64,000 bases of DNA from a virus (Duplodnaviria; Caudoviricetes): positions 1-64,000 of the IMG/VR virus record IMGVR_UViG_3300027542_000004, one strand, 5' to 3'. The position numbers were made by a program, and so were the translations under genes. Within the stretch, counting starts at the first letter, position 1. Every line of letters begins with the position of its first letter. This document shows positions 5,311 through 57,627 of the stretch, piece by piece. Below the pieces are notes generated by a model. That model was not told the origin of the DNA and searched no databases. It was given only the letters and a program-made list of their open reading frames with translations.

Positions 5311-6897
5311 ATGAACTCAGCTTTATTAACTGATGGCTATAAATTAGACCATCGCAGACAATATCCGGCAGGAACGGAATATGTCTATTCAAACTGGACT
5401 CCACGCAGTAACGAGTATCTCAAGGAAGCCGAAGATGGTGCAGTGGTGTTCGGTATTCAGTATTTCATCAAGAAATATCTGATAGAGAACTTCAATCGCC
5501 ACTTCTTTAACAAGCCGGAAGATGAGGCAGTCGCATCATTCAAACGCCGCATCGATACATTTCTTGGCAAGAATGAGGTCGGCAAGGAACATATAAGGGA
5601 GCTTCATAAACTTGGCTATCTGCCTATCAAGATGAAATCACTCCCGGAGGGTTCTATATGCCCCATTCGTGTGCCGATGGTCACAGTTATCAACACAAAC
5701 CCCAAATTCTTCTGGCTTACCAATTATTTGGAAACCATCATGTCTTGTGAGTTCTGGCTCCCAATGACATCAGCCACTATCGCCCGTATCTACCGCAAGG
5801 AACTTGAACGTCATGCCGAAAAGACCGGCTTCACACCTGACGTTAATCTTGGTTTTCTGTGCCACGATTTTTCAATGCGTGGAATGGCAGGTCTTGAAGC
5901 CGCTATTACAAGCGGTATGGGTCATCTGACATCATTCGTAGGCAGTGAAACACTCCCGGCTATTGATGCGGTAGAAGAATACTACAACGCAGATGCGGAA
6001 AAGGAAATCATCGCAATGACTGTACCAGCATCGGAACATAGCGTTATGTGTGCCGGTGGCAAAGATGATGAAATCGGCACATTCAAAAGGTTTCTTACTG
6101 AAATCTATCCCACAGGCTTTTGCAGCATCGTAAGCGACACATGGGATTTATGGCAAGTCGTTACTGACTTCTTGCCACGCCTCAAGGACATCATAATGAA
6201 TCGGGATGGTCGTTTGGTCGTTCGCCCCGACAGTGGAAACCCAGTAGATATTATCTGTGGTGTCAATCCGGAAGACTGCGTTGAAATCAATGGTAAAGAG
6301 TACCATATCCCCGGTGTAATGAGGGATGCGCAGTATTCTGAATCAATTCAAGATGCTATCAGATGCTATCCTAATGACCCTGTTTATATGGCGATGGAAG
6401 TATCACCTGCTGAAAAGAAAGGTGTGTATGAACTTCTGTGGGATATATTCGGTGGAATTACCAACGAAAAGGGTTACAAAGTCCTTGATACCCACATCGG
6501 AGTCATCTATGGGGACAGCATCACTATCGAACGTCAGAAAGAAATCTATCGCAGACTTGAAGCAAAAGGTTTTGCAGCCACAAATCTCGTTTTGGGAATT
6601 GGCTCTTATACCTATCAATATCGCACCCGTGATAGCCTCGGCTTCGCTATGAAAGCAACATGGTGTCAAGTGAATGGCGAACCGCGAGAAATCTTCAAAT
6701 CGCCCAAAACTGATAGTGGAATGAAGAAGTCACTCAAGGGGCTTATCCGCGTTGACAAGGACGAAAACGGCAAATTCTATGCTACCGATTGTGTAAGCAA
6801 AGAACAGGAAGCAGGTGGTTGCCTTGAAACCGTCTTTGAAGACGGAAAGCTCGTAAAAGAAGTTTCATTTTCAGAAATCCGTGAAAGACTATGTTAA
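5311..6897 (+). CDS. Nicotinamide phosphoribosyltransferase-family protein (Namat-like, NARP1)
   Basis: TDGYK..H..QYP, HDFSMRG, PASEHS, VSDTWD, RPDSG, YGDSIT motifs. Confidence 0.9.
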   Translation: MNSALLTDGYKLDHRRQYPAGTEYVYSNWTPRSNEYLKEAEDGAVVFGIQYFIKKYLIENFNRHFFNKPEDEAVASFKRRIDTFLGKNEVGKEHIRELHKLGYLPIKMKSLPEGSICPIRVPMVTVINTNPKFFWLTNYLETIMSCEFWLPMTSATIARIYRKELERHAEKTGFTPDVNLGFLCHDFSMRGMAGLEAAITSGMGHLTSFVGSETLPAIDAVEEYYNADAEKEIIAMTVPASEHSVMCAGGKDDEIGTFKRFLTEIYPTGFCSIVSDTWDLWQVVTDFLPRLKDIIMNRDGRLVVRPDSGNPVDIICGVNPEDCVEINGKEYHIPGVMRDAQYSESIQDAIRCYPNDPVYMAMEVSPAEKKGVYELLWDIFGGITNEKGYKVLDTHIGVIYGDSITIERQKEIYRRLEAKGFAATNLVLGIGSYTYQYRTRDSLGFAMKATWCQVNGEPREIFKSPKTDSGMKKSLKGLIRVDKDENGKFYATDCVSKEQEAGGCLETVFEDGKLVKEVSFSEIRERLC

Positions 6898-31755: not shown

Positions 31756-31828
31756 CGCGGGTTGGAGCAGTTGGAAGCTCGCCAGTTTAACTTGCTGGAG
31801 GTCGTCGGTTCGAGTCCGACACCCGCTA
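31756..31828 (+). tRNA. Initiator-like tRNA body with AAC anticodon (reads GUU)
   Basis: C1/U72 mismatch, GCGGGT/ACCCGC stem, A73, D stem GAGC/GCTC, anticodon arm CCAGT-TTAACTT-GCTGG, T arm GTCGG-TTCGAGT-CCGAC; CCA not encoded. Confidence 0.88.
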
Positions 31829-31856
31829 CAAATAAAATCACTTACAAACAAAATCA

Positions 31857-52837: not shown

Positions 52838-53407
52838 ATGAAATTACTGTTTTTCGATTTAGAAACGACCGGTACGCTGGTCAACAAGCACGGAATACAC
52901 CAAATGTCCGGCTTCATCGTAATCGACGGCGAAATCAAGGAGAAATTCAATCTTCATGTTCGCCCCAATCCAATGGCGCAGATTGACCCCGCCGCATTAG
53001 AGGTGGCAGGTGTGACGGAAGCGCAAATCAAGGCTTACCCTCCGATGGAGCAGGTGTACGCCGGCTTCGTTGATAAGCTATCCCAGTACGTTGACCGCTA
53101 CAACAAGAAAGACAAATTCTTTCTCGTCGGCTATAACAACGCATCATTCGACAATCAGTTTCTCCGTGCGTGGTTCATTCAGAACGGCGATAAATACTTC
53201 GGCTCATGGTTTTGGGCAAACAGCATAGACGTGATGATAATGGCGACTCCTTACCTCGCTGAACGTCGCGCCGAGATGGAAAACTTCAAACAAGGCACGG
53301 TCGCCAAAACCCTCGGCATAGTCGTGGAAGATGACAAGCTACACGATGCACTCTACGACATCGAAATCTGCAAAGCCATCTACGACAAGGTTTGTGGAAA
53401 GTATTAA
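52838..53407 (+). CDS. DEDDh 3'-5' exonuclease (DnaQ-like)
   Basis: DLETTG, YN..FD..FL, HDALYD. Confidence 0.9.
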   Translation: MKLLFFDLETTGTLVNKHGIHQMSGFIVIDGEIKEKFNLHVRPNPMAQIDPAALEVAGVTEAQIKAYPPMEQVYAGFVDKLSQYVDRYNKKDKFFLVGYNNASFDNQFLRAWFIQNGDKYFGSWFWANSIDVMIMATPYLAERRAEMENFKQGTVAKTLGIVVEDDKLHDALYDIEICKAIYDKVCGKY

Positions 53408-53426: not shown

Positions 53427-54209
53427 ATGAGAATCAAGAAGCAAAAATCGTTCAAGAACGGTACGGTGTACTGCCTTGAGCTGGAAGACGGAATGTTGGT
53501 TGAAACAACCGACACCTTTCTGCCTTACTACACCAAAGACGCAATCGGTCGCAAGCAGAATTTTCTTGACAACAATCAGCTCGGTAGTCGTGCGGAACGC
53601 TGGATGATAGGCGTATCCACAATGAGCGGATGCCCGGTTCATTGCAAATTCTGCGCTACCGGCAACATGAAGCGTTGGCGCAATCTTACGGCTGACGAAA
53701 TTGTCGGTCAGGTGGAATTTGCCATCGCACAGGCAGGATTCAACCCGGCAGATGCCCGCGAGTTCAAAATCAACTACACGCGCATGGGTGAGCCTTTCTT
53801 GAACATCGACGCAGTTAAAGAAGCCATTGCCCGCATCACGGAAAAATATCCGAACACACATCACTACGTTTCAACCATCGGCATCGCCGGCAGCGATTTC
53901 TCTTTTGTCAAGGGGAACGTGACGCTCCAGATAAGTCTGCATAGCTTTGACGATGACAAGCGTAACTGGCTTATCCCTTACCCCAAGAAGATGACCATCG
54001 AAGAGCTGGGGCGCATACGCACGGAAAGCAACCTTAAAACGACCATCAACCTTACACTCGTTGACGAGTCGGATTTCGATGCTGAAAAGCTGGCGAAGTA
54101 TTTTGACAAGGATTATTTCTTTGTCAAGCTATCGCCCATCAATCCCAACAGCATATCGGAAAAGAACAATCTCGGTAACGGTGTTATCGAGGGCGTGAAC
54201 ATTGTATAA
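53427..54209 (+). CDS. RlmN/Cfr-like radical SAM protein, N-terminal part
   Basis: GCPVHCKFCATG, RNLT.DEIV.QV, MGEP..N, VST.G, ISLH. Confidence 0.85.
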   Translation: MRIKKQKSFKNGTVYCLELEDGMLVETTDTFLPYYTKDAIGRKQNFLDNNQLGSRAERWMIGVSTMSGCPVHCKFCATGNMKRWRNLTADEIVGQVEFAIAQAGFNPADAREFKINYTRMGEPFLNIDAVKEAIARITEKYPNTHHYVSTIGIAGSDFSFVKGNVTLQISLHSFDDDKRNWLIPYPKKMTIEELGRIRTESNLKTTINLTLVDESDFDAEKLAKYFDKDYFFVKLSPINPNSISEKNNLGNGVIEGVNIV

Positions 54210-54229
54210 CCACTTAACACAACAACCAC

Positions 54230-54349
54230 ATGGAAGCAATCAAGAAACAGCTTGAATCTATGGGTTACGATTATGCGGTAGCAATCGCAACCAAGTCGGA
54301 AATCGAAAACGGTGCTGCCTGCGGACAGCTCGCAATCATCGCCGAGTAA
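54230..54349 (+). CDS. 39 aa peptide carrying the RlmN C-terminal AACGQL motif
   Basis: MEAIKKQLESMGYDYAVAIATKSEIENGAACGQLAIIAE, own ATG and A/C-rich leader. Confidence 0.75.
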   Translation: MEAIKKQLESMGYDYAVAIATKSEIENGAACGQLAIIAE

Positions 54350-54359
54350 CCCGGAAACC

Positions 54360-54397
54360 GGCGGCTTGAGGAGTGCTTCGGTATTCTTCAAGTCGCC
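54360..54397 (+). other. 17-bp RNA hairpin with C(UUCG)G loop
   Basis: GGCGGCTTGAGGAGTGC-TTCG-GTATTCTTCAAGTCGCC, four G-U pairs. Confidence 0.7.
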
Positions 54398-54412: not shown

Positions 54413-54877
54413 ATGGAAAAATTTCTATTGATACTCCCGGTGGTTGGTATGATTGTCGTTGTGGGCATCCCACTATGGGCATACCTGTCTTTCAAATCAT
54501 ACAAGCGGAAACTGCGCCGCGTCTATGACGAAATCAAGATTGGCGACCGCTACAAGTTTGAAATGCCGCCTCTACATCCGTTTGACGAATCTCATGTTTA
54601 CAAGGCGACTATTATAGGCAAGACGTTAGCCCGTGGAAAATCCCCGTGGGTGCAATATCGCTACGATGATATGCTATATCCGCAATACGAGAATAGATTT
54701 GCCAAGACCATCACAAAAGGTCTGATGGAAAGCCTTATCGAAGAGGCGAAGAAGCACATCGCCGAACACGAAAGCAACCCCAAATCAATGGTACATCCGG
54801 AGGTTCTTGCGCATTGGAAGAAAATCGCGCAAGGCATCCCTCCTTTCGGATACAAGGTCGTAGATGAAAAATTCTGA
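54413..54877 (+). CDS. Membrane-anchored hypothetical protein
   Basis: N-terminal hydrophobic helix. Confidence 0.6.
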   Translation: MEKFLLILPVVGMIVVVGIPLWAYLSFKSYKRKLRRVYDEIKIGDRYKFEMPPLHPFDESHVYKATIIGKTLARGKSPWVQYRYDDMLYPQYENRFAKTITKGLMESLIEEAKKHIAEHESNPKSMVHPEVLAHWKKIAQGIPPFGYKVVDEKF

Positions 54878-54896: not shown

Positions 54897-56027
54897 ATGA
54901 AATTTACCATCAACAGTAAGGCTCTTTTGAGCCGTCTGGTTGCCGCCGGCAAAGCCGTAAGCAACCGACCCACGATTTCCATTCTGGGCAATTTCATGTT
55001 CGCCCTTGATGGGAAGACCGTCACAATCACCGCATCCGATACCGACAACGTGGTAATATCGCGCATTGAAGCCAACGATGCCGAGGGTGCTGGTAGTGTC
55101 TGCATCGATGCAAAGCGCGTCACGGAACTGCTCAAGGCAATGCCGGATTGCCCCGTGGTGTTTGACATCAACGATTCAACCCACGCAACCATCATCCGCT
55201 ACACCAACGGAAAATACAATCTGTCTGGTCTGCCCACCATAGACTATCCCATTGGCGAGGCTGACGAAACGGAAGTCAAGGGCGTATTCACAATGCCAGC
55301 TTCGCAGATTCTCAAGGCACTGGATGTTGTCGGCTTCGCTACATCCAACGATGAACTCCGCCCCATGCTGAACGGAGTGTATTGGGATATTACGGAAGAT
55401 GCCGTTACATTCGTGGCAACCGACACCCATGTACTTGCAAAGTATCGTAGTACGCAGACCGCCCCCGGCAAGGTCATGAGCTTCAATCTGCCCAGTAAGT
55501 CAATCGCGCTTATCCGTGCGTTCATCGGAAAGCAGAGCGACATAAAGCTGACGGTCAGCGAAAGATTCGTCATCTTTGAGGGTAGCGACTTCAAGGTGCG
55601 CTCTACGCTTTATAATGGAATGTACCCGAACTACAACCGCGTTATTCCCGTCAATCAGCCCATCTCTATCACGGTTGACCGCATGGACTTCGCTAACGCT
55701 ATCACACGTGTTGCCATCTGCGCTGACGCACAGACACCGGTGCTTCGCCTCAAGATTGCAGACGGAAAGATTGACATCGTGGCGCAGGACATCAGCTTCA
55801 ACATCGGCGGCGAGGAGAAAGTGACGTGCGACTACAACGGAACACCGCTTGAAATCGGATTCAGTTCAATCTACCTCAAGGGCGTACTTAACGCGATGAA
55901 CACGCAGAACGTCGTGATAAAGCTGGCGGAGGCAAGCCGACCCGGATTGTTCCTACCCGCTGAAAACGACGAATACGGCGAACTTACGCTTTTGTGTATG
56001 CCCATAAATATCCAGCAAACGACTTAA
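54897..56027 (+). CDS. dnaN: DNA polymerase III beta sliding clamp
   Basis: 376 aa; DELRP.LNGV, VATD.H.L, YPNY.RVIP, IGF, MP. Confidence 0.93.
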   Translation: MKFTINSKALLSRLVAAGKAVSNRPTISILGNFMFALDGKTVTITASDTDNVVISRIEANDAEGAGSVCIDAKRVTELLKAMPDCPVVFDINDSTHATIIRYTNGKYNLSGLPTIDYPIGEADETEVKGVFTMPASQILKALDVVGFATSNDELRPMLNGVYWDITEDAVTFVATDTHVLAKYRSTQTAPGKVMSFNLPSKSIALIRAFIGKQSDIKLTVSERFVIFEGSDFKVRSTLYNGMYPNYNRVIPVNQPISITVDRMDFANAITRVAICADAQTPVLRLKIADGKIDIVAQDISFNIGGEEKVTCDYNGTPLEIGFSSIYLKGVLNAMNTQNVVIKLAEASRPGLFLPAENDEYGELTLLCMPINIQQTT

Positions 56028-56450: not shown

Positions 56451-56906
56451 ATGCAGAGAATCATTAAATTTCGCGGAAAATCCGTTGCTGACGGTACATG
56501 GGTCTATGGCGACTTAATCCACATGAAAGGACGCAAGGTTGCGATATGGCCCACGGAAGAGAAATACGATGGTGGCGCGATTGAGGTTATACCCGCTTCG
56601 GTGGGTCAGTACACCAATTCACGCGACTGCCTCAAGAAAGAAATCTACGAGGGTGACATTGTGCGCCAGAAATGGGAAACCACAGTGATAGATGAACACG
56701 ATGACGCATATTCAGCAAAAGGAACGCAGACCGGAATTGTGGTGCTACGCACGAGGGGAGTCTGCATGTCACCCTGCCTGAAAGAAAACGACCTTACGGA
56801 AGATGCGCTGCTGACAAAGAATGTACCTGTTACCGGGTGGCGTTCTGAAATCATCGGCAATACAACCGACAATCCCTCACTATTTGAGGAAATCTGTAAC
56901 CCTTAA
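56451..56906 (+). CDS. YopX-family protein
   Basis: IKFRGK...WVYGDL, VGQYT...D....EIYEGDIV, EIIGN. Confidence 0.9.
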   Translation: MQRIIKFRGKSVADGTWVYGDLIHMKGRKVAIWPTEEKYDGGAIEVIPASVGQYTNSRDCLKKEIYEGDIVRQKWETTVIDEHDDAYSAKGTQTGIVVLRTRGVCMSPCLKENDLTEDALLTKNVPVTGWRSEIIGNTTDNPSLFEEICNP

Positions 56907-56925
56907 CCAATTAACCCCAACTGCA

Positions 56926-57627
56926 ATGAAAAAGTACATCGGTACGAAGACGCTTAACGCCGAGCCTATGACAAAGGGCGAGGCTTATGACCGTTCTTTA
57001 CTGCGTGGTGGAATAACACCCGTAGAGCGTGAAATCCTCGGCTATCATGTCGTTTATCCTGACGGCTATGAAAGCTGGTCGCCCAAAGACGTATTTGATG
57101 CGGCCTACAATGTCGCCGACACATTACTTGACCGCCTTAACATCGAATACAAAGAGCTTGACAAGAAAGCCGGCAAAATCGTTGAGTTCAGACTGACGGA
57201 AGCCTATAAGAATCTGCGCGACACCGACCGCGCCATGCTTGATGTTCAGTTCGACACCATGATTAGCTATCTGAGCATCCTCGGTTGTCGCTCTACATCA
57301 GTGGAAACAGGTCAGGGCGGCTTCTGCGGTCTTGACTTCGGCACGGCAATCCATCTCCTTGAACGTGGATACGTCATCCGTCGCAGCGGATGGAACGGCA
57401 AGGATATTGTCGTGTTCAAGCAAGTGCCGTCAAGCATCAAGAGCGACATCATTCCCAACATGCAATCCCTGCCCCTCAAGGCTAAAGAACTTATCATGGC
57501 CGGAAACAAGCGTATAGACTACACCTCGCAGTGTCTTATCTATAACACGAAGACTGGTCGCGCCGATAGTTGGGTTCCATCTATCAGCGACGTGTTCGCC
57601 CATGACTGGGAGCTTGTAGCCGACTAA
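56926..57627 (+). CDS. Multi-domain protein with C-terminal DUF2829 (Tad2-like) domain
   Basis: DFG.AI..L..G..IRR.GWNGK...WVPS.SD.FA.DWE; N-terminal Y.DGY.SWSPK.VF..AY. Confidence 0.78.
   Translation: MKKYIGTKTLNAEPMTKGEAYDRSLLRGGITPVEREILGYHVVYPDGYESWSPKDVFDAAYNVADTLLDRLNIEYKELDKKAGKIVEFRLTEAYKNLRDTDRAMLDVQFDTMISYLSILGCRSTSVETGQGGFCGLDFGTAIHLLERGYVIRRSGWNGKDIVVFKQVPSSIKSDIIPNMQSLPLKAKELIMAGNKRIDYTSQCLIYNTKTGRADSWVPSISDVFAHDWELVAD

What the first reader, a model, noticed from the sequence alone, without database searches (positions are those of the whole stretch)
53427..54349. RlmN-like radical SAM enzyme split so that the methyl-carrier cysteine is on a separate 39 aa peptide
Seen: the 260 aa ORF has CxxxCxxC and MGEP but ends before the C-terminal motif. 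AACGQL is encoded 20 nt downstream in another frame, with its own ATG and leader. The second conserved Cys upstream of the cluster motif appears replaced (IGVSTMSGC). Established: RlmN/Cfr use the AACGQL Cys as methyl carrier and the upstream Cys to resolve the RNA adduct. Inference: a two-component enzyme that might leave the peptide cross-linked to a nucleic acid, or use the peptide as substrate.
Basis: partly seen in the sequence, partly recalled or inferred. Interest (0 to 1): 0.7.

Follow-up and report, generated by a model that had tools for sequence, protein, structure and literature searches.

The report
Two-piece phage RlmN-like radical SAM enzyme
This mouse-gut phage makes a relative of the RNA-methylating enzyme RlmN as two separate proteins, a 260-residue body that lacks one of RlmN's two working cysteines and a 39-residue peptide that carries the other; many unrelated phages keep this layout, and its target is unknown.

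Summary
ORF 53427-54209 is a radical SAM protein of the RlmN/Cfr fold. ORF 54230-54349, 20 nt on in another frame, encodes a 39 aa peptide ending ...ENGAACGQLAIIAE.

Among 189 related loci (window, phage contigs, three cultured phages, MAG contigs; at least 5 are repeat fetches), all 189 have Gly where RlmN has Cys118. A separate Cys peptide was found in 184. It lies just downstream, about 1.1-1.3 kb downstream, or upstream of the core.

The peptide gene is under strong purifying selection (dN/dS about 0.05). A complex prediction docks the peptide as the missing last strand and Cys loop (0.79, best control 0.01).

Two points I found:
- Loss of Cys118 is shared with single-chain cellular relatives, so it is not tied to the split.
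- All these Cys118-less lineages have Glu seven residues before the carrier Cys, a candidate replacement base.

The target is unknown. My four literature searches found no paper on it. The scan found the same system before on other DNA (52 notes, at least 35 genomes).

The parts
53427..54209 (+). Core subunit gene, 260 aa, RlmN/Cfr-fold radical SAM protein. Cluster Cys are C69, C73 and C76. Gly62 (53610-53612) sits at the RlmN Cys118 position. There is no N-terminal RlmN RNA-binding domain and no C-terminal Cys loop.
   Evidence: Pfam Radical_SAM, E 4.3e-10. TIGR00048 RlmN, E 4.8e-23, model positions 75-299 of 355, 81.7 bits against a cut-off of 290. PDB alignments. Model pLDDT 94.1. The 10 best Foldseek matches are all RlmN or Cfr.
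54210..54229 (+). 20 nt spacer between the two genes. It holds a TAA at 54215-54217 in the peptide's frame.
   Evidence: Sequence read. In 78 related loci plus the window the spacer is 17, 19, 20 or 1171 nt, with both frame offsets, and it is much less conserved than the flanking codons.
54230..54349 (+). Peptide subunit gene, 39 aa. It has a helix, a strand (YDYAVAIA) and a loop with the carrier Cys31 (54320-54322) in AACGQL. Glu24 (54299-54301) is invariant.
   Evidence: dN/dS 0.049 over 206 pairs. In 32 diverse peptides G12, A18, A20, T21, E24, A29, A30, C31, G32 and Q33 are invariant. The peptide profile aligns with the last 37-40 residues of full-length RlmN-type proteins, hhalign E 2.2e-4 and 1.5e-4. 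Docking prediction.
54360..54397 (+). Strong hairpin (17 pairs, UUCG loop) 10 nt after the peptide stop. It probably marks the end of the two-gene transcription unit. It has no clear U tract.
   Evidence: Terminator-like scan. RNA fold -31.6 kcal/mol, z -6.3, 0 of 200 shuffles as good. Hairpins with z <= -3 follow the peptide gene in 14 of 31 non-redundant loci.

Best explanation
The two ORFs encode the two subunits of one class A (RlmN/Cfr-type) radical SAM enzyme.

Shown or strongly indicated:
- The 260 aa core binds the 4Fe-4S cluster and SAM.
- The separately translated 39 aa peptide adds its strand (residues 13-18) to the edge of the core sheet (core 231-236). It lays its AACGQL loop over the cluster/SAM site. 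It thus supplies in trans what RlmN's C-terminus supplies in cis.

Inferred by analogy with RlmN:
- Cys31 of the peptide takes a methyl group from one SAM.
- A second SAM is cleaved to 5'-deoxyadenosyl radical, which makes a Cys-S-CH2 radical.
- That radical adds to an sp2 carbon of the target.

Release step. The enzyme belongs to a wider clade of RlmN relatives that all lack Cys118. Release of the methylated product is therefore proposed not to need that Cys. My candidate for the missing base is the invariant Glu seven residues before the carrier Cys (peptide Glu24). This is inference.

Target. It is unknown. With the RlmN RNA-binding N-domain absent, it may be a nucleic acid recognised differently, or a free nucleotide.

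How sure: two-subunit enzyme about 0.9; catalytic one-carbon transfer with turnover about 0.5.
For: Fold and family.
- Only RlmN/Cfr models hit strongly.
- Foldseek ranks 1-10 are RlmN or Cfr at E 2e-12 to 4e-7; the next fold is at E 1e-3.

Conserved split.
- Of 189 split-clade loci, 184 have a separate peptide: 128 within 60 nt downstream, 5 at 61-800 nt, 46 more than 1100 nt downstream, 4 upstream, 1 overlapping.
- Cultured phages of Bacteroides, Moorella and Pectobacterium have the pair. The small ORF is already annotated as a CDS in all three records.

Separate translation.
- The spacer and frame offsets vary, and the core ORF stops at TAA or TGA.
- Shine-Dalgarno-like motifs precede the peptide ATG in many loci outside Bacteroidota.

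Selection. dN/dS is 0.049.

Peptide is the RlmN C-terminus. hhalign aligns it to residues 311-347 of 349 (P0256) and 301-340 (P0268).

Binding.
- ipSAE was 0.79, 0.85 and 0.79 (median 0.79) against a best control of 0.01. That mark was reached by 58 of 80 solved complexes and 2 of 110 mismatched pairs.
- The runs share at least 93% of contacts, and the partner's pLDDT is at least 80.
- Contacts include core 231-237 and 75-81, 118, 120.
- As halves of a fold with solved structures, this pass may reflect likeness to RlmN.

Cys118-less clade.
- Gly at that position in 189 of 189 loci.
- The only Cys columns conserved in 43 single-chain cellular relatives are the three cluster Cys and the tail Cys.
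- One tree branch (SH-aLRT 95) separates 17 Cys118-bearing rows from 47 Cys118-less rows.

Glu at Cys-7.
- Present in 184 of 184 phage peptides and 43 of 43 cellular relatives, two of which also have Cys at the 118 position.
- Present in 20 of 21 Cys118-less representatives (the other has Asp).
- Acidic in 0 of 23 Cys118-bearing representatives.
Against: - No biochemical data exist. The substrate, the product and even methyl transfer are inferred from RlmN (mechanism read in passages of PMC9692996).
- That review states Cys118 is indispensable for resolving the cross-link in RlmN and Cfr. An enzyme without it could stall at the adduct.
- The Glu/Cys118 pattern maps to a single branch of an unrooted tree. 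It may be one historical event and not compensation.
- I had no coordinates to check that Glu24 reaches the active site.
- If the peptide were only a structural piece, re-fusion should be frequent. C-terminal fusions are 0 of 189, and the one N-terminal fusion (P0124) is a singleton cluster. That hints at selection for a free peptide, which the turnover model does not explain.
- The peptide alone gives no significant hit to PDB sequences, and the hhalign probabilities are only 45-52%.
Confidence: 0.55

Rival explanations
1. Sacrificial peptide. With no resolving residue the reaction stops at the covalent adduct. The 39 aa peptide is then left attached through an S-CH2 bridge to the target base. 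Putting the Cys on a free peptide lets the core subunit be reused, so the product is a peptide-tagged nucleic acid or nucleotide.
For: - The Cys118 equivalent is Gly in 189 of 189 loci.
- RlmN C118A is trapped cross-linked to tRNA (PMC9692996 passages; PDB 5hr6 title).
- No conserved Cys other than the cluster Cys occurs in 32 diverse cores.
- C-terminal re-fusion was never seen: 0 of 189.
- The peptide can be encoded before, after or far from the core, as expected of a separate reagent.
Against: - Single-chain cellular relatives with the same Cys118-less layout keep the Cys in cis (43 sequences). For them a stable cross-link would be suicide, so a Cys118-independent release probably exists in the clade.
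- Glu at Cys-7 is invariant.
- The predicted interface is large: 28 of the 39 peptide residues touch the core, with 145 contacts. That looks like a fixed subunit, not a leaving group.
- One natural N-terminal fusion exists (P0124).
Confidence: 0.2
2. The peptide is itself the substrate or product (RiPP-like). The radical SAM protein modifies the peptide, for example by S-methylation or a thioether, and the modified peptide is the effector.
For: - The layout is a small conserved peptide gene next to a radical SAM gene.
- 46 of 189 loci carry a second radical SAM gene and a small methyltransferase between the two genes. This resembles a maturation cluster.
Against: - The peptide is collinear with RlmN's own C-terminal helix, strand and Cys loop and is predicted to complete the core's sheet.
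- It is conserved along its whole length, with no variable core region.
- The core matches peptide-maturase families only weakly, at E 5e-4 or worse. Nothing stronger than the generic Radical_SAM and Fer4_12 domains was found in Pfam.
Confidence: 0.08
3. Broken gene or artefact: a frameshifted pseudogene, a sequencing error, or a single protein made by programmed frameshifting or read-through.
For: The two ORFs are adjacent on the same strand, in different frames, and together they resemble one RlmN chain.
Against: - The same split occurs in independent assemblies, cultured phage genomes and mouse-gut runs.
- Spacer length, frame offset and gene order vary while both ORFs stay intact.
- The small ORF has dN/dS 0.049.
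- A stop in the peptide frame lies inside the spacer.
- In 46 loci the two genes are more than 1.1 kb apart.
Confidence: 0.02

Closest known systems
RlmN (23S rRNA A2503 / tRNA A37 C2-methyl synthase; TIGR00048; PDB 3RFA, 4PL1, 5HR6, 6FZ6)
   Same: - Best sequence family and best structural matches.
- Same CxxxCxxC and GEP motifs.
- Same AACGQL carrier-Cys motif.
- The peptide is collinear with RlmN's last 40 or so residues.
   Different: - Scores 81.7 bits against a cut-off of 290.
- Has no N-terminal domain; the match starts at model position 75.
- Cys118 is replaced by an invariant Gly.
- The carrier Cys is on a separate gene product.
- Glu, not Gly, stands at Cys-7.
- It is phage-borne, and the target is unknown.
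Cfr (23S rRNA A2503 C8-methyltransferase; TIGR04432, NF000424; PDB 9P0P)
   Same: Same class A fold and the same two-SAM, Cys-carrier chemistry. It is Foldseek rank 10, E 3.6e-7.
   Different: - Far below the family cut-offs: 50.9 against 550 and 55.3 against 530 bits.
- Cfr keeps both mechanistic Cys in one chain (C338 and C105 per PMC9692996).
RlmN C118A laboratory mutant (PDB 4PL1, 5HR6/5HR7)
   Same: The resolving Cys is absent. The window's Gly62 aligns with the Ala of 4pl1.
   Different: The mutant is an engineered dead end that stays cross-linked to RNA. Here the loss is natural and invariant, and it comes with a Glu at Cys-7 and a trans-acting Cys peptide.
Uncharacterised single-chain Cys118-less RlmN-like proteins of bacteria and archaea (tail ...GSNCGQ; Atlas name 'radical SAM protein')
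   Same: - On the same side of the tree.
- No Cys118.
- The carrier Cys has Glu at -7.
- The tail G[YF][DE]V..S.GE..E....CGQ resembles the phage peptide.
   Different: - One chain of 300-330 aa.
- Next to a thioredoxin-reductase-like flavoprotein in 41 of 46 loci.
- Cellular, not viral.
- No function is on record.
Phage 'genes in pieces' enzymes (split ribonucleotide reductase or polymerase genes of T4-like phages; recalled, no call)
   Same: An enzyme encoded as two separately translated ORFs that reassemble.
   Different: Those splits are recent, lineage-specific and usually caused by an inserted homing endonuclease gene. This split is ancient, spans phages of several host phyla, and cuts off only a 39 aa catalytic loop.

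Membership tests
RlmN (TIGR00048 equivalog) | Whole-protein score above the curated cut-off (290 bits) | tested here: not met
   81.7 bits, E 4.8e-23, model positions 75-299 of 355.
RlmN / Cfr (class A radical SAM methylases) | CxxxCxxC motif for the radical SAM 4Fe-4S cluster, and the RlmN/Cfr fold | tested here: met
   C69, C73, C76. Pfam Radical_SAM. Foldseek top 10 are all RlmN or Cfr.
RlmN / Cfr (class A radical SAM methylases) | Methyl-carrier Cys in a C-terminal loop of the same chain (RlmN C355, Cfr C338) | tested here: not met
   The core ends at residue 260 without it. The motif AACGQL is on the separate 39 aa peptide, so the feature is met only in trans.
RlmN / Cfr (class A radical SAM methylases) | Resolving Cys seven residues before the first cluster Cys (RlmN C118, Cfr C105) | tested here: not met
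   Gly62. Gly in 189 of 189 related loci. No other conserved Cys in 32 cores.
RlmN | N-terminal helical RNA-binding domain | tested here: not met
   The alignment to TIGR00048 starts at model position 75 with query residue 6. Pfam reports only Radical_SAM and Fer4_12.
RlmN / Cfr | C2 or C8 methylation of adenosine in rRNA or tRNA | not testable with these tools
The only tRNA gene of the window has U at position 37, on my reading of the loop.
Cfr (TIGR04432, NF000424) | Score above the curated cut-off | tested here: not met
   50.9 against 550 bits, and 55.3 against 530 bits.
RiPP precursor plus radical SAM maturase | Maturase-type family membership, and a precursor with a conserved leader and a variable core | tested here: not met
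   Peptide-maturase families hit only at E 5e-4 or worse and far below their cut-offs. The peptide is conserved throughout and collinear with the RlmN C-terminus.

The most novel reading that the evidence does not exclude
The free peptide is a consumable reagent. The core enzyme uses SAM to weld the 39 aa peptide through an S-CH2 bridge onto an adenine (or another sp2 carbon) of a host or phage nucleic acid, or of a nucleotide such as an immune signal or an NAD-related molecule. This would be a natural radical 'peptidylation' of a nucleobase used in phage-host conflict.
Probability: 0.17. Interest if true: 0.92.

Novelty: new variant of a known kind. Interest (0 to 1): 0.68.

Why it matters
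RlmN and Cfr are the only characterised class A radical SAM methylases, and their mechanism rests on two cysteines in one chain. Here nature has removed one of them and put the other on a detachable peptide. This has happened in a large family spread over phages of Bacteroidota, Firmicutes and Proteobacteria, and it shares its Cys118-less state with uncharacterised cellular enzymes.

There are two possible outcomes, and either extends known radical SAM chemistry:
- The chemistry has a second way to release product, testable through the invariant Glu at Cys-7.
- These phages make covalent peptide-base adducts.

The system is small, cultured phages carry it, and it can be expressed in E. coli, so the question is directly testable. 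It also adds a widespread gene pair of unknown role to the early/auxiliary gene regions of gut phages.

Tried and rejected
tRNA target.
- The window's only tRNA gene (Val, anticodon AAC, 31756-31829) has U, not A, at position 37 on my reading of its loop. It cannot be an m2A37 substrate.
- tRNA genes lie within about 3 kb of the pair in only 4 of 35 non-redundant loci.

NAD link.
- A NAPRTase-family gene and an NMN-adenylyltransferase/Nudix gene lie beside the pair in 8 and 7 of 35 non-redundant loci.
- Only 10 of 30 whole records that carry the system have a NAPRTase-family gene.
- The window's own record has two such genes, both more than 40 kb from the pair.
- I treat this as a lead only.

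Alternative resolving Cys. Cys16 of the core is conserved among close relatives, but it is His in Moorella phage MTATph1 and Ser in Pectobacterium phage Arno18, and it is not invariant in 32 cores.

Direct sequence matches of the peptide. The peptide alone, and its profile, gave no meaningful hit to PDB chains. It gave none in Pfam, NCBIfam or PHROGs either.

Fused forms.
- The six longer proteins among the 120 closest homologues are N-terminal extensions.
- P0124, with the peptide fused at the N-terminus, is a cluster of 2 sequences with no relatives found over its first 110 residues.

Loci without a peptide: 5 of 189.
- L122 and L170 have too little downstream DNA.
- L106 has a truncated second radical SAM gene followed by unrelated genes.
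- L117 and L081 show none within the fetched flanks.

Expression.
- One contig of an RNA library (X16, 1168 nt, 42 differences) bridges the core gene, the spacer and the peptide gene without an indel in the spacer. Another (X17) covers the core only.
- Contigs of RNA libraries can hold DNA and show no transcript ends or levels, so this is not evidence of expression.

Promoter scan. It gave nothing useful on the + strand.

Literature.
- Four full-text searches found no paper on a phage or split RlmN-like enzyme: RlmN + bacteriophage + radical SAM; radical SAM + RlmN-like + phage; methyladenine terms + phage genome + radical SAM; radical SAM + crAss-like + methyltransferase + hypothetical.
- From those four searches I saw only listings and abstract starts.
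- PMC9692996, found with a separate search on the RlmN mechanism, I read as passages.
- Supplements were not opened.
Full report
What is there.

The spacer holds a TAA at 54215-17 in the peptide's frame, so a simple frameshift cannot fuse them.

The window is the first 64 kb of a 96.6 kb virus record, estimated 86% complete. The identical stretch is held by mouse-gut metagenome runs. The neighbouring genes are phage replication and auxiliary genes:
- a DnaQ-like exonuclease at 52838-53407 and a sliding clamp at 54897-56027;
- a YopX protein and a Tad2-like protein further on.

The core is an RlmN/Cfr-type radical SAM protein.

- Pfam finds only the generic Radical_SAM domain.
- NCBIfam's best hits are RlmN (TIGR00048, E 4.8e-23, model positions 75-299 of 355) and then the Cfr models, all far below their cut-offs.
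- phmmer against PDB chains finds only RlmN and Cfr (5 sequences). It aligns ERWMIGVSTMSGC with RlmN's DRTTVCVSCQVGC, and with DRATLAVSSQVGC of the C118A mutant. Gly62 therefore occupies the Cys118 position.
- An AlphaFold model built on 32 diverse homologues is confident (pLDDT 94.1, pTM 0.91).
- Its ten best Foldseek matches in the PDB are all RlmN or Cfr (E 2.1e-12 to 3.6e-7). The next fold appears at E 1e-3.
- RlmN's N-terminal domain and its C-terminal Cys loop are both absent from this chain.

The split is real, old and selected.

- A first scan of viral contigs gave 80 loci at 82-100% identity. In all of them the core ends at the same place. A peptide MxxIKxQLxxxGYDYAVAIATxxExENGAAC[G/S]QL follows in another frame.
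- In 78 of those loci plus the window (79 rows), the spacer is 20 nt in 63, 19 in 8, 17 in 1 and 1171 nt in 7. Both frame offsets occur, and the core ORF stops at TAA in 63 and TGA in 16.
- Across 29 distinct nucleotide versions of the peptide core, dN is 0.064 and dS 1.31 (ratio 0.049, 206 pairs).
- The 120 closest proteins of 2059 hits are 260-262 aa, apart from six that carry only N-terminal extensions.
- tblastn against GenBank phages found 40 records.
- In Kehishuvirus 'tikkala' (Bacteroides), Moorella phage MTATph1 and Pectobacterium phage Arno18 the core is followed by a 43, 40 and 60 aa AACGQ peptide. The peptide is already annotated as a hypothetical CDS. In Arno18 a 92 aa ORF lies between the two genes.
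- Profile-based scans added viral loci and contigs of MAGs from many phyla.
- With HMMs for both parts I scored all 235 loci. Of these, 189 belong to the split clade. That count includes the window and three GenBank phages, and at least 5 are second fetches of the same contig.
- All 189 have Gly at the Cys118 position, and 184 have a separate peptide. It lies within 60 nt downstream in 128, at 61-800 nt in 5, more than 1100 nt downstream in 46, upstream in 4 (L133 and L166 adjacent; L093 and L174 distant) and overlapping in 1.
- The five without a peptide are explained in part by short flanks.
- Many loci outside Bacteroidota have GGAGG-like motifs 6-10 nt before the peptide ATG.
- In the window a strong hairpin (-31.6 kcal/mol, z -6.3) follows the peptide stop. 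Comparable hairpins follow it in 14 of 31 non-redundant loci.
- A pseudogene or assembly error is excluded.

The peptide is the missing C-terminus and is predicted to dock.

- The profile of 32 peptides aligns collinearly with the last 37-40 residues of full-length RlmN-type proteins. The CGQ motifs are in register (hhalign E 2.2e-4 and 1.5e-4, probabilities 45% and 52%).
- The same profile hits the C-terminal tails of single-chain relatives (for example L227, E 5.7e-7).
- A complex prediction was run with both alignments, a 4Fe-4S cluster and SAM. It gave ipSAE 0.79, 0.85 and 0.79 against a best control of 0.01.
- That mark was reached by 58 of 80 solved complexes and 2 of 110 mismatched pairs. 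The runs agree in at least 93% of contacts, and the partner's pLDDT is at least 80.
- The tightest pairs join peptide residues 13-18 to core 231-236, an added edge strand. The peptide also touches core 75-81, 118 and 120, next to the cluster and SAM motifs.
- These are two halves of a fold with solved structures. The pass may therefore reflect likeness to RlmN, and it does not show binding.

What the missing Cys means.

In RlmN the carrier Cys355 is methylated by one SAM. A 5'-deoxyadenosyl radical from a second SAM then makes a Cys-S-CH2 radical, which adds to C2 of adenosine. Cys118 is needed to resolve the protein-RNA cross-link, probably as a general base, and C118A is trapped on tRNA (passages of PMC9692996). 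Two results bear on this.

First, loss of Cys118 is not peculiar to the split.
- Among more distant relatives there is a single-chain family of 300-330 aa in bacteria and archaea with the tail ...G[YF][DE]V..S.GE..E..IGSNCGQ.
- In 43 aligned members the only conserved Cys columns are the three cluster Cys and the tail Cys.
- A maximum-likelihood tree of 64 proteins puts four Cys118-less groups on one side of a branch with SH-aLRT 95. They are the split phage clade, this cellular family, a smaller ...AACGQA family and a family with neither Cys. The 17 Cys118-bearing rows are on the other side (unrooted, quick search, no bootstrap).
- For single-chain enzymes a permanent self-cross-link would be suicidal. 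A Cys118-independent release therefore probably exists in this clade.

Second, the residue seven before the carrier Cys covaries with Cys118.
- It is Glu in 184 of 184 phage peptides and in 43 of 43 cellular relatives.
- It is Glu in 20 of 21 Cys118-less representatives; the other has Asp.
- It is Gly, Gln, Ile or Lys in all 23 Cys118-bearing representatives.
- Peptide Glu24 is thus a candidate replacement base.
- The caveat is that on the tree this is a single transition, so it may be history and not compensation. I also had no coordinates to check the geometry.

The only fused form, P0124, has the peptide at the N-terminus and is a two-sequence singleton. This suggests the peptide is kept free for a reason that the simple 'split subunit' model does not give.

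Context and target.

- In 46 of 189 loci a MoaA/viperin-like radical SAM gene lies between the core and the peptide gene. It is about 255 aa, with a Cx12Cx2C or Cx5Cx2C motif. A 147 aa SAM methyltransferase (phrog_5399) lies there too. This holds in both Bacteroidota-type and Clostridia/Bacilli-type contigs.
- Within the non-redundant set, 7 of 35 loci carry that module. It is optional, and it is absent from the window.
- NAD-salvage genes are frequent neighbours: a NAPRTase-family gene in 8 of 35 loci and an NMNAT-Nudix gene in 7 of 35. Yet only 10 of 30 whole records with the system have a NAPRTase-family gene, all of them large genomes.
- tRNA genes are near the pair in 4 of 35 loci, and the window's own tRNA has U37.
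- The core is roughly neutral (net charge 0 here; median +1.5 over 32). The peptide is acidic (-3 here; median -4).
- None of this fixes the target.
- The loss of RlmN's RNA-binding domain and the company of nucleotide-type enzymes make a free nucleotide as plausible as a nucleic acid. This is inference.

Comparison and novelty.

The pair works like RlmN/Cfr in fold and probably in Cys-carrier chemistry, but it fails five membership tests for RlmN/Cfr:
- the curated RlmN cut-off;
- the curated Cfr cut-offs;
- the carrier Cys in cis;
- Cys118;
- the N-terminal domain.

I therefore file it as a new variant of class A radical SAM methylases, not as an RlmN. The four searches named under Tried and rejected found no paper on it. 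Supplements were not opened.

The scan itself has met this system repeatedly on other DNA: 52 notes in at least 35 genomes, with follow-up readings that agree with mine. What I add here:
- the placement in a wider Cys118-less clade with cellular single-chain members;
- the Glu-at-Cys-7 pattern;
- the negative genome-level test of the NAD link.

Verdict.

- Two-subunit RlmN-like enzyme: about 0.9.
- Catalytic one-carbon transfer with a Cys118-independent release: about 0.5.
- Sacrificial peptide cross-link: about 0.2.
- Peptide as product: under 0.1.
- Artefact: about 0.02.

Noticed in passing
L189-L234 (genome-contig loci), e.g. L191:1169-2065 beside L191:2047-3027: The single-chain Cys118-less RlmN-like family of bacteria and archaea (tail ...GSNCGQ) sits next to a thioredoxin-reductase-like flavoprotein (Pyr_redox_2) of about 300 aa in 41 of 46 loci. 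The one flavoprotein I read (L191) has no CxxC. It may be a dedicated electron donor. Neither protein has a function on record.
   Followed up: partly
L219:2626-4515, L220:1984-3717, L226:2719-4503: In three Elusimicrobia contigs the single-chain RlmN-like protein is fused to a C-terminal isochorismatase-family domain (E about 1e-40). The Atlas also lists a cluster fused to PNP_UDP_1 and QueT domains. These fusions hint at a small-molecule (nucleobase or nucleoside) substrate for the clade.
   Followed up: partly
L074:3780-4965 (also L164, L172, L177, L162, L133, L093, L160): A conserved two-gene module lies between, or beside, the core and peptide genes in 46 of 189 loci. It consists of a MoaA/viperin-like radical SAM protein with an expanded cluster motif (Cx12Cx2C or Cx5Cx2C) and a 147 aa SAM methyltransferase (phrog_5399).
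   Followed up: partly
proteins P0183, P0185, P0191, P0192, P0197, P0201, P0204 and others: A further RlmN-like family of about 275 aa (motif KIGVSL..GC..GC.YCFTN) has neither Cys118 nor any CGQ Cys. Its members end just after the strand that precedes the Cys loop. I did not check whether they have a separate peptide.
   Followed up: no
protein P0124 (315 aa, metagenomic, 2 contigs): This is the only fused form seen in the split clade. The peptide homologue (...SSACGQLKVL) is joined to the N-terminus of the core, a circular permutation relative to RlmN. It probably arose from the peptide-upstream gene order.
   Followed up: partly
window 56821-57627 and 56451-56906: A 268 aa protein with a C-terminal Tad2-like domain (E 1.4e-15) and a crAss001_48-related domain lies here, preceded by a YopX-family protein. 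An anti-defence gene therefore lies 2.5 kb downstream of the pair.
   Followed up: partly
window 5854-6792 (+) and own record 95479-96078 (-), outside the window: The phage record carries two NAPRTase-family genes (open frames of 590 and 408 aa), presumably for NAD rebuilding. Both are more than 40 kb from the RlmN-like pair.
   Followed up: no
L124:3929-4009: ARAGORN calls a tRNA-like gene with a four-base anticodon (catc) starting 9 nt after the peptide gene's stop codon (peptide gene L124:3798-3917 plus stop) in one viral contig. A tRNA-Met gene lies upstream of the core.
   Followed up: no
window 54413-54877: A 154 aa ORF lies directly after the hairpin. It starts with a hydrophobic, membrane-like segment, has no family hit at E 1e-3 or better, and did not recur among neighbours in the non-redundant loci.
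   Followed up: no
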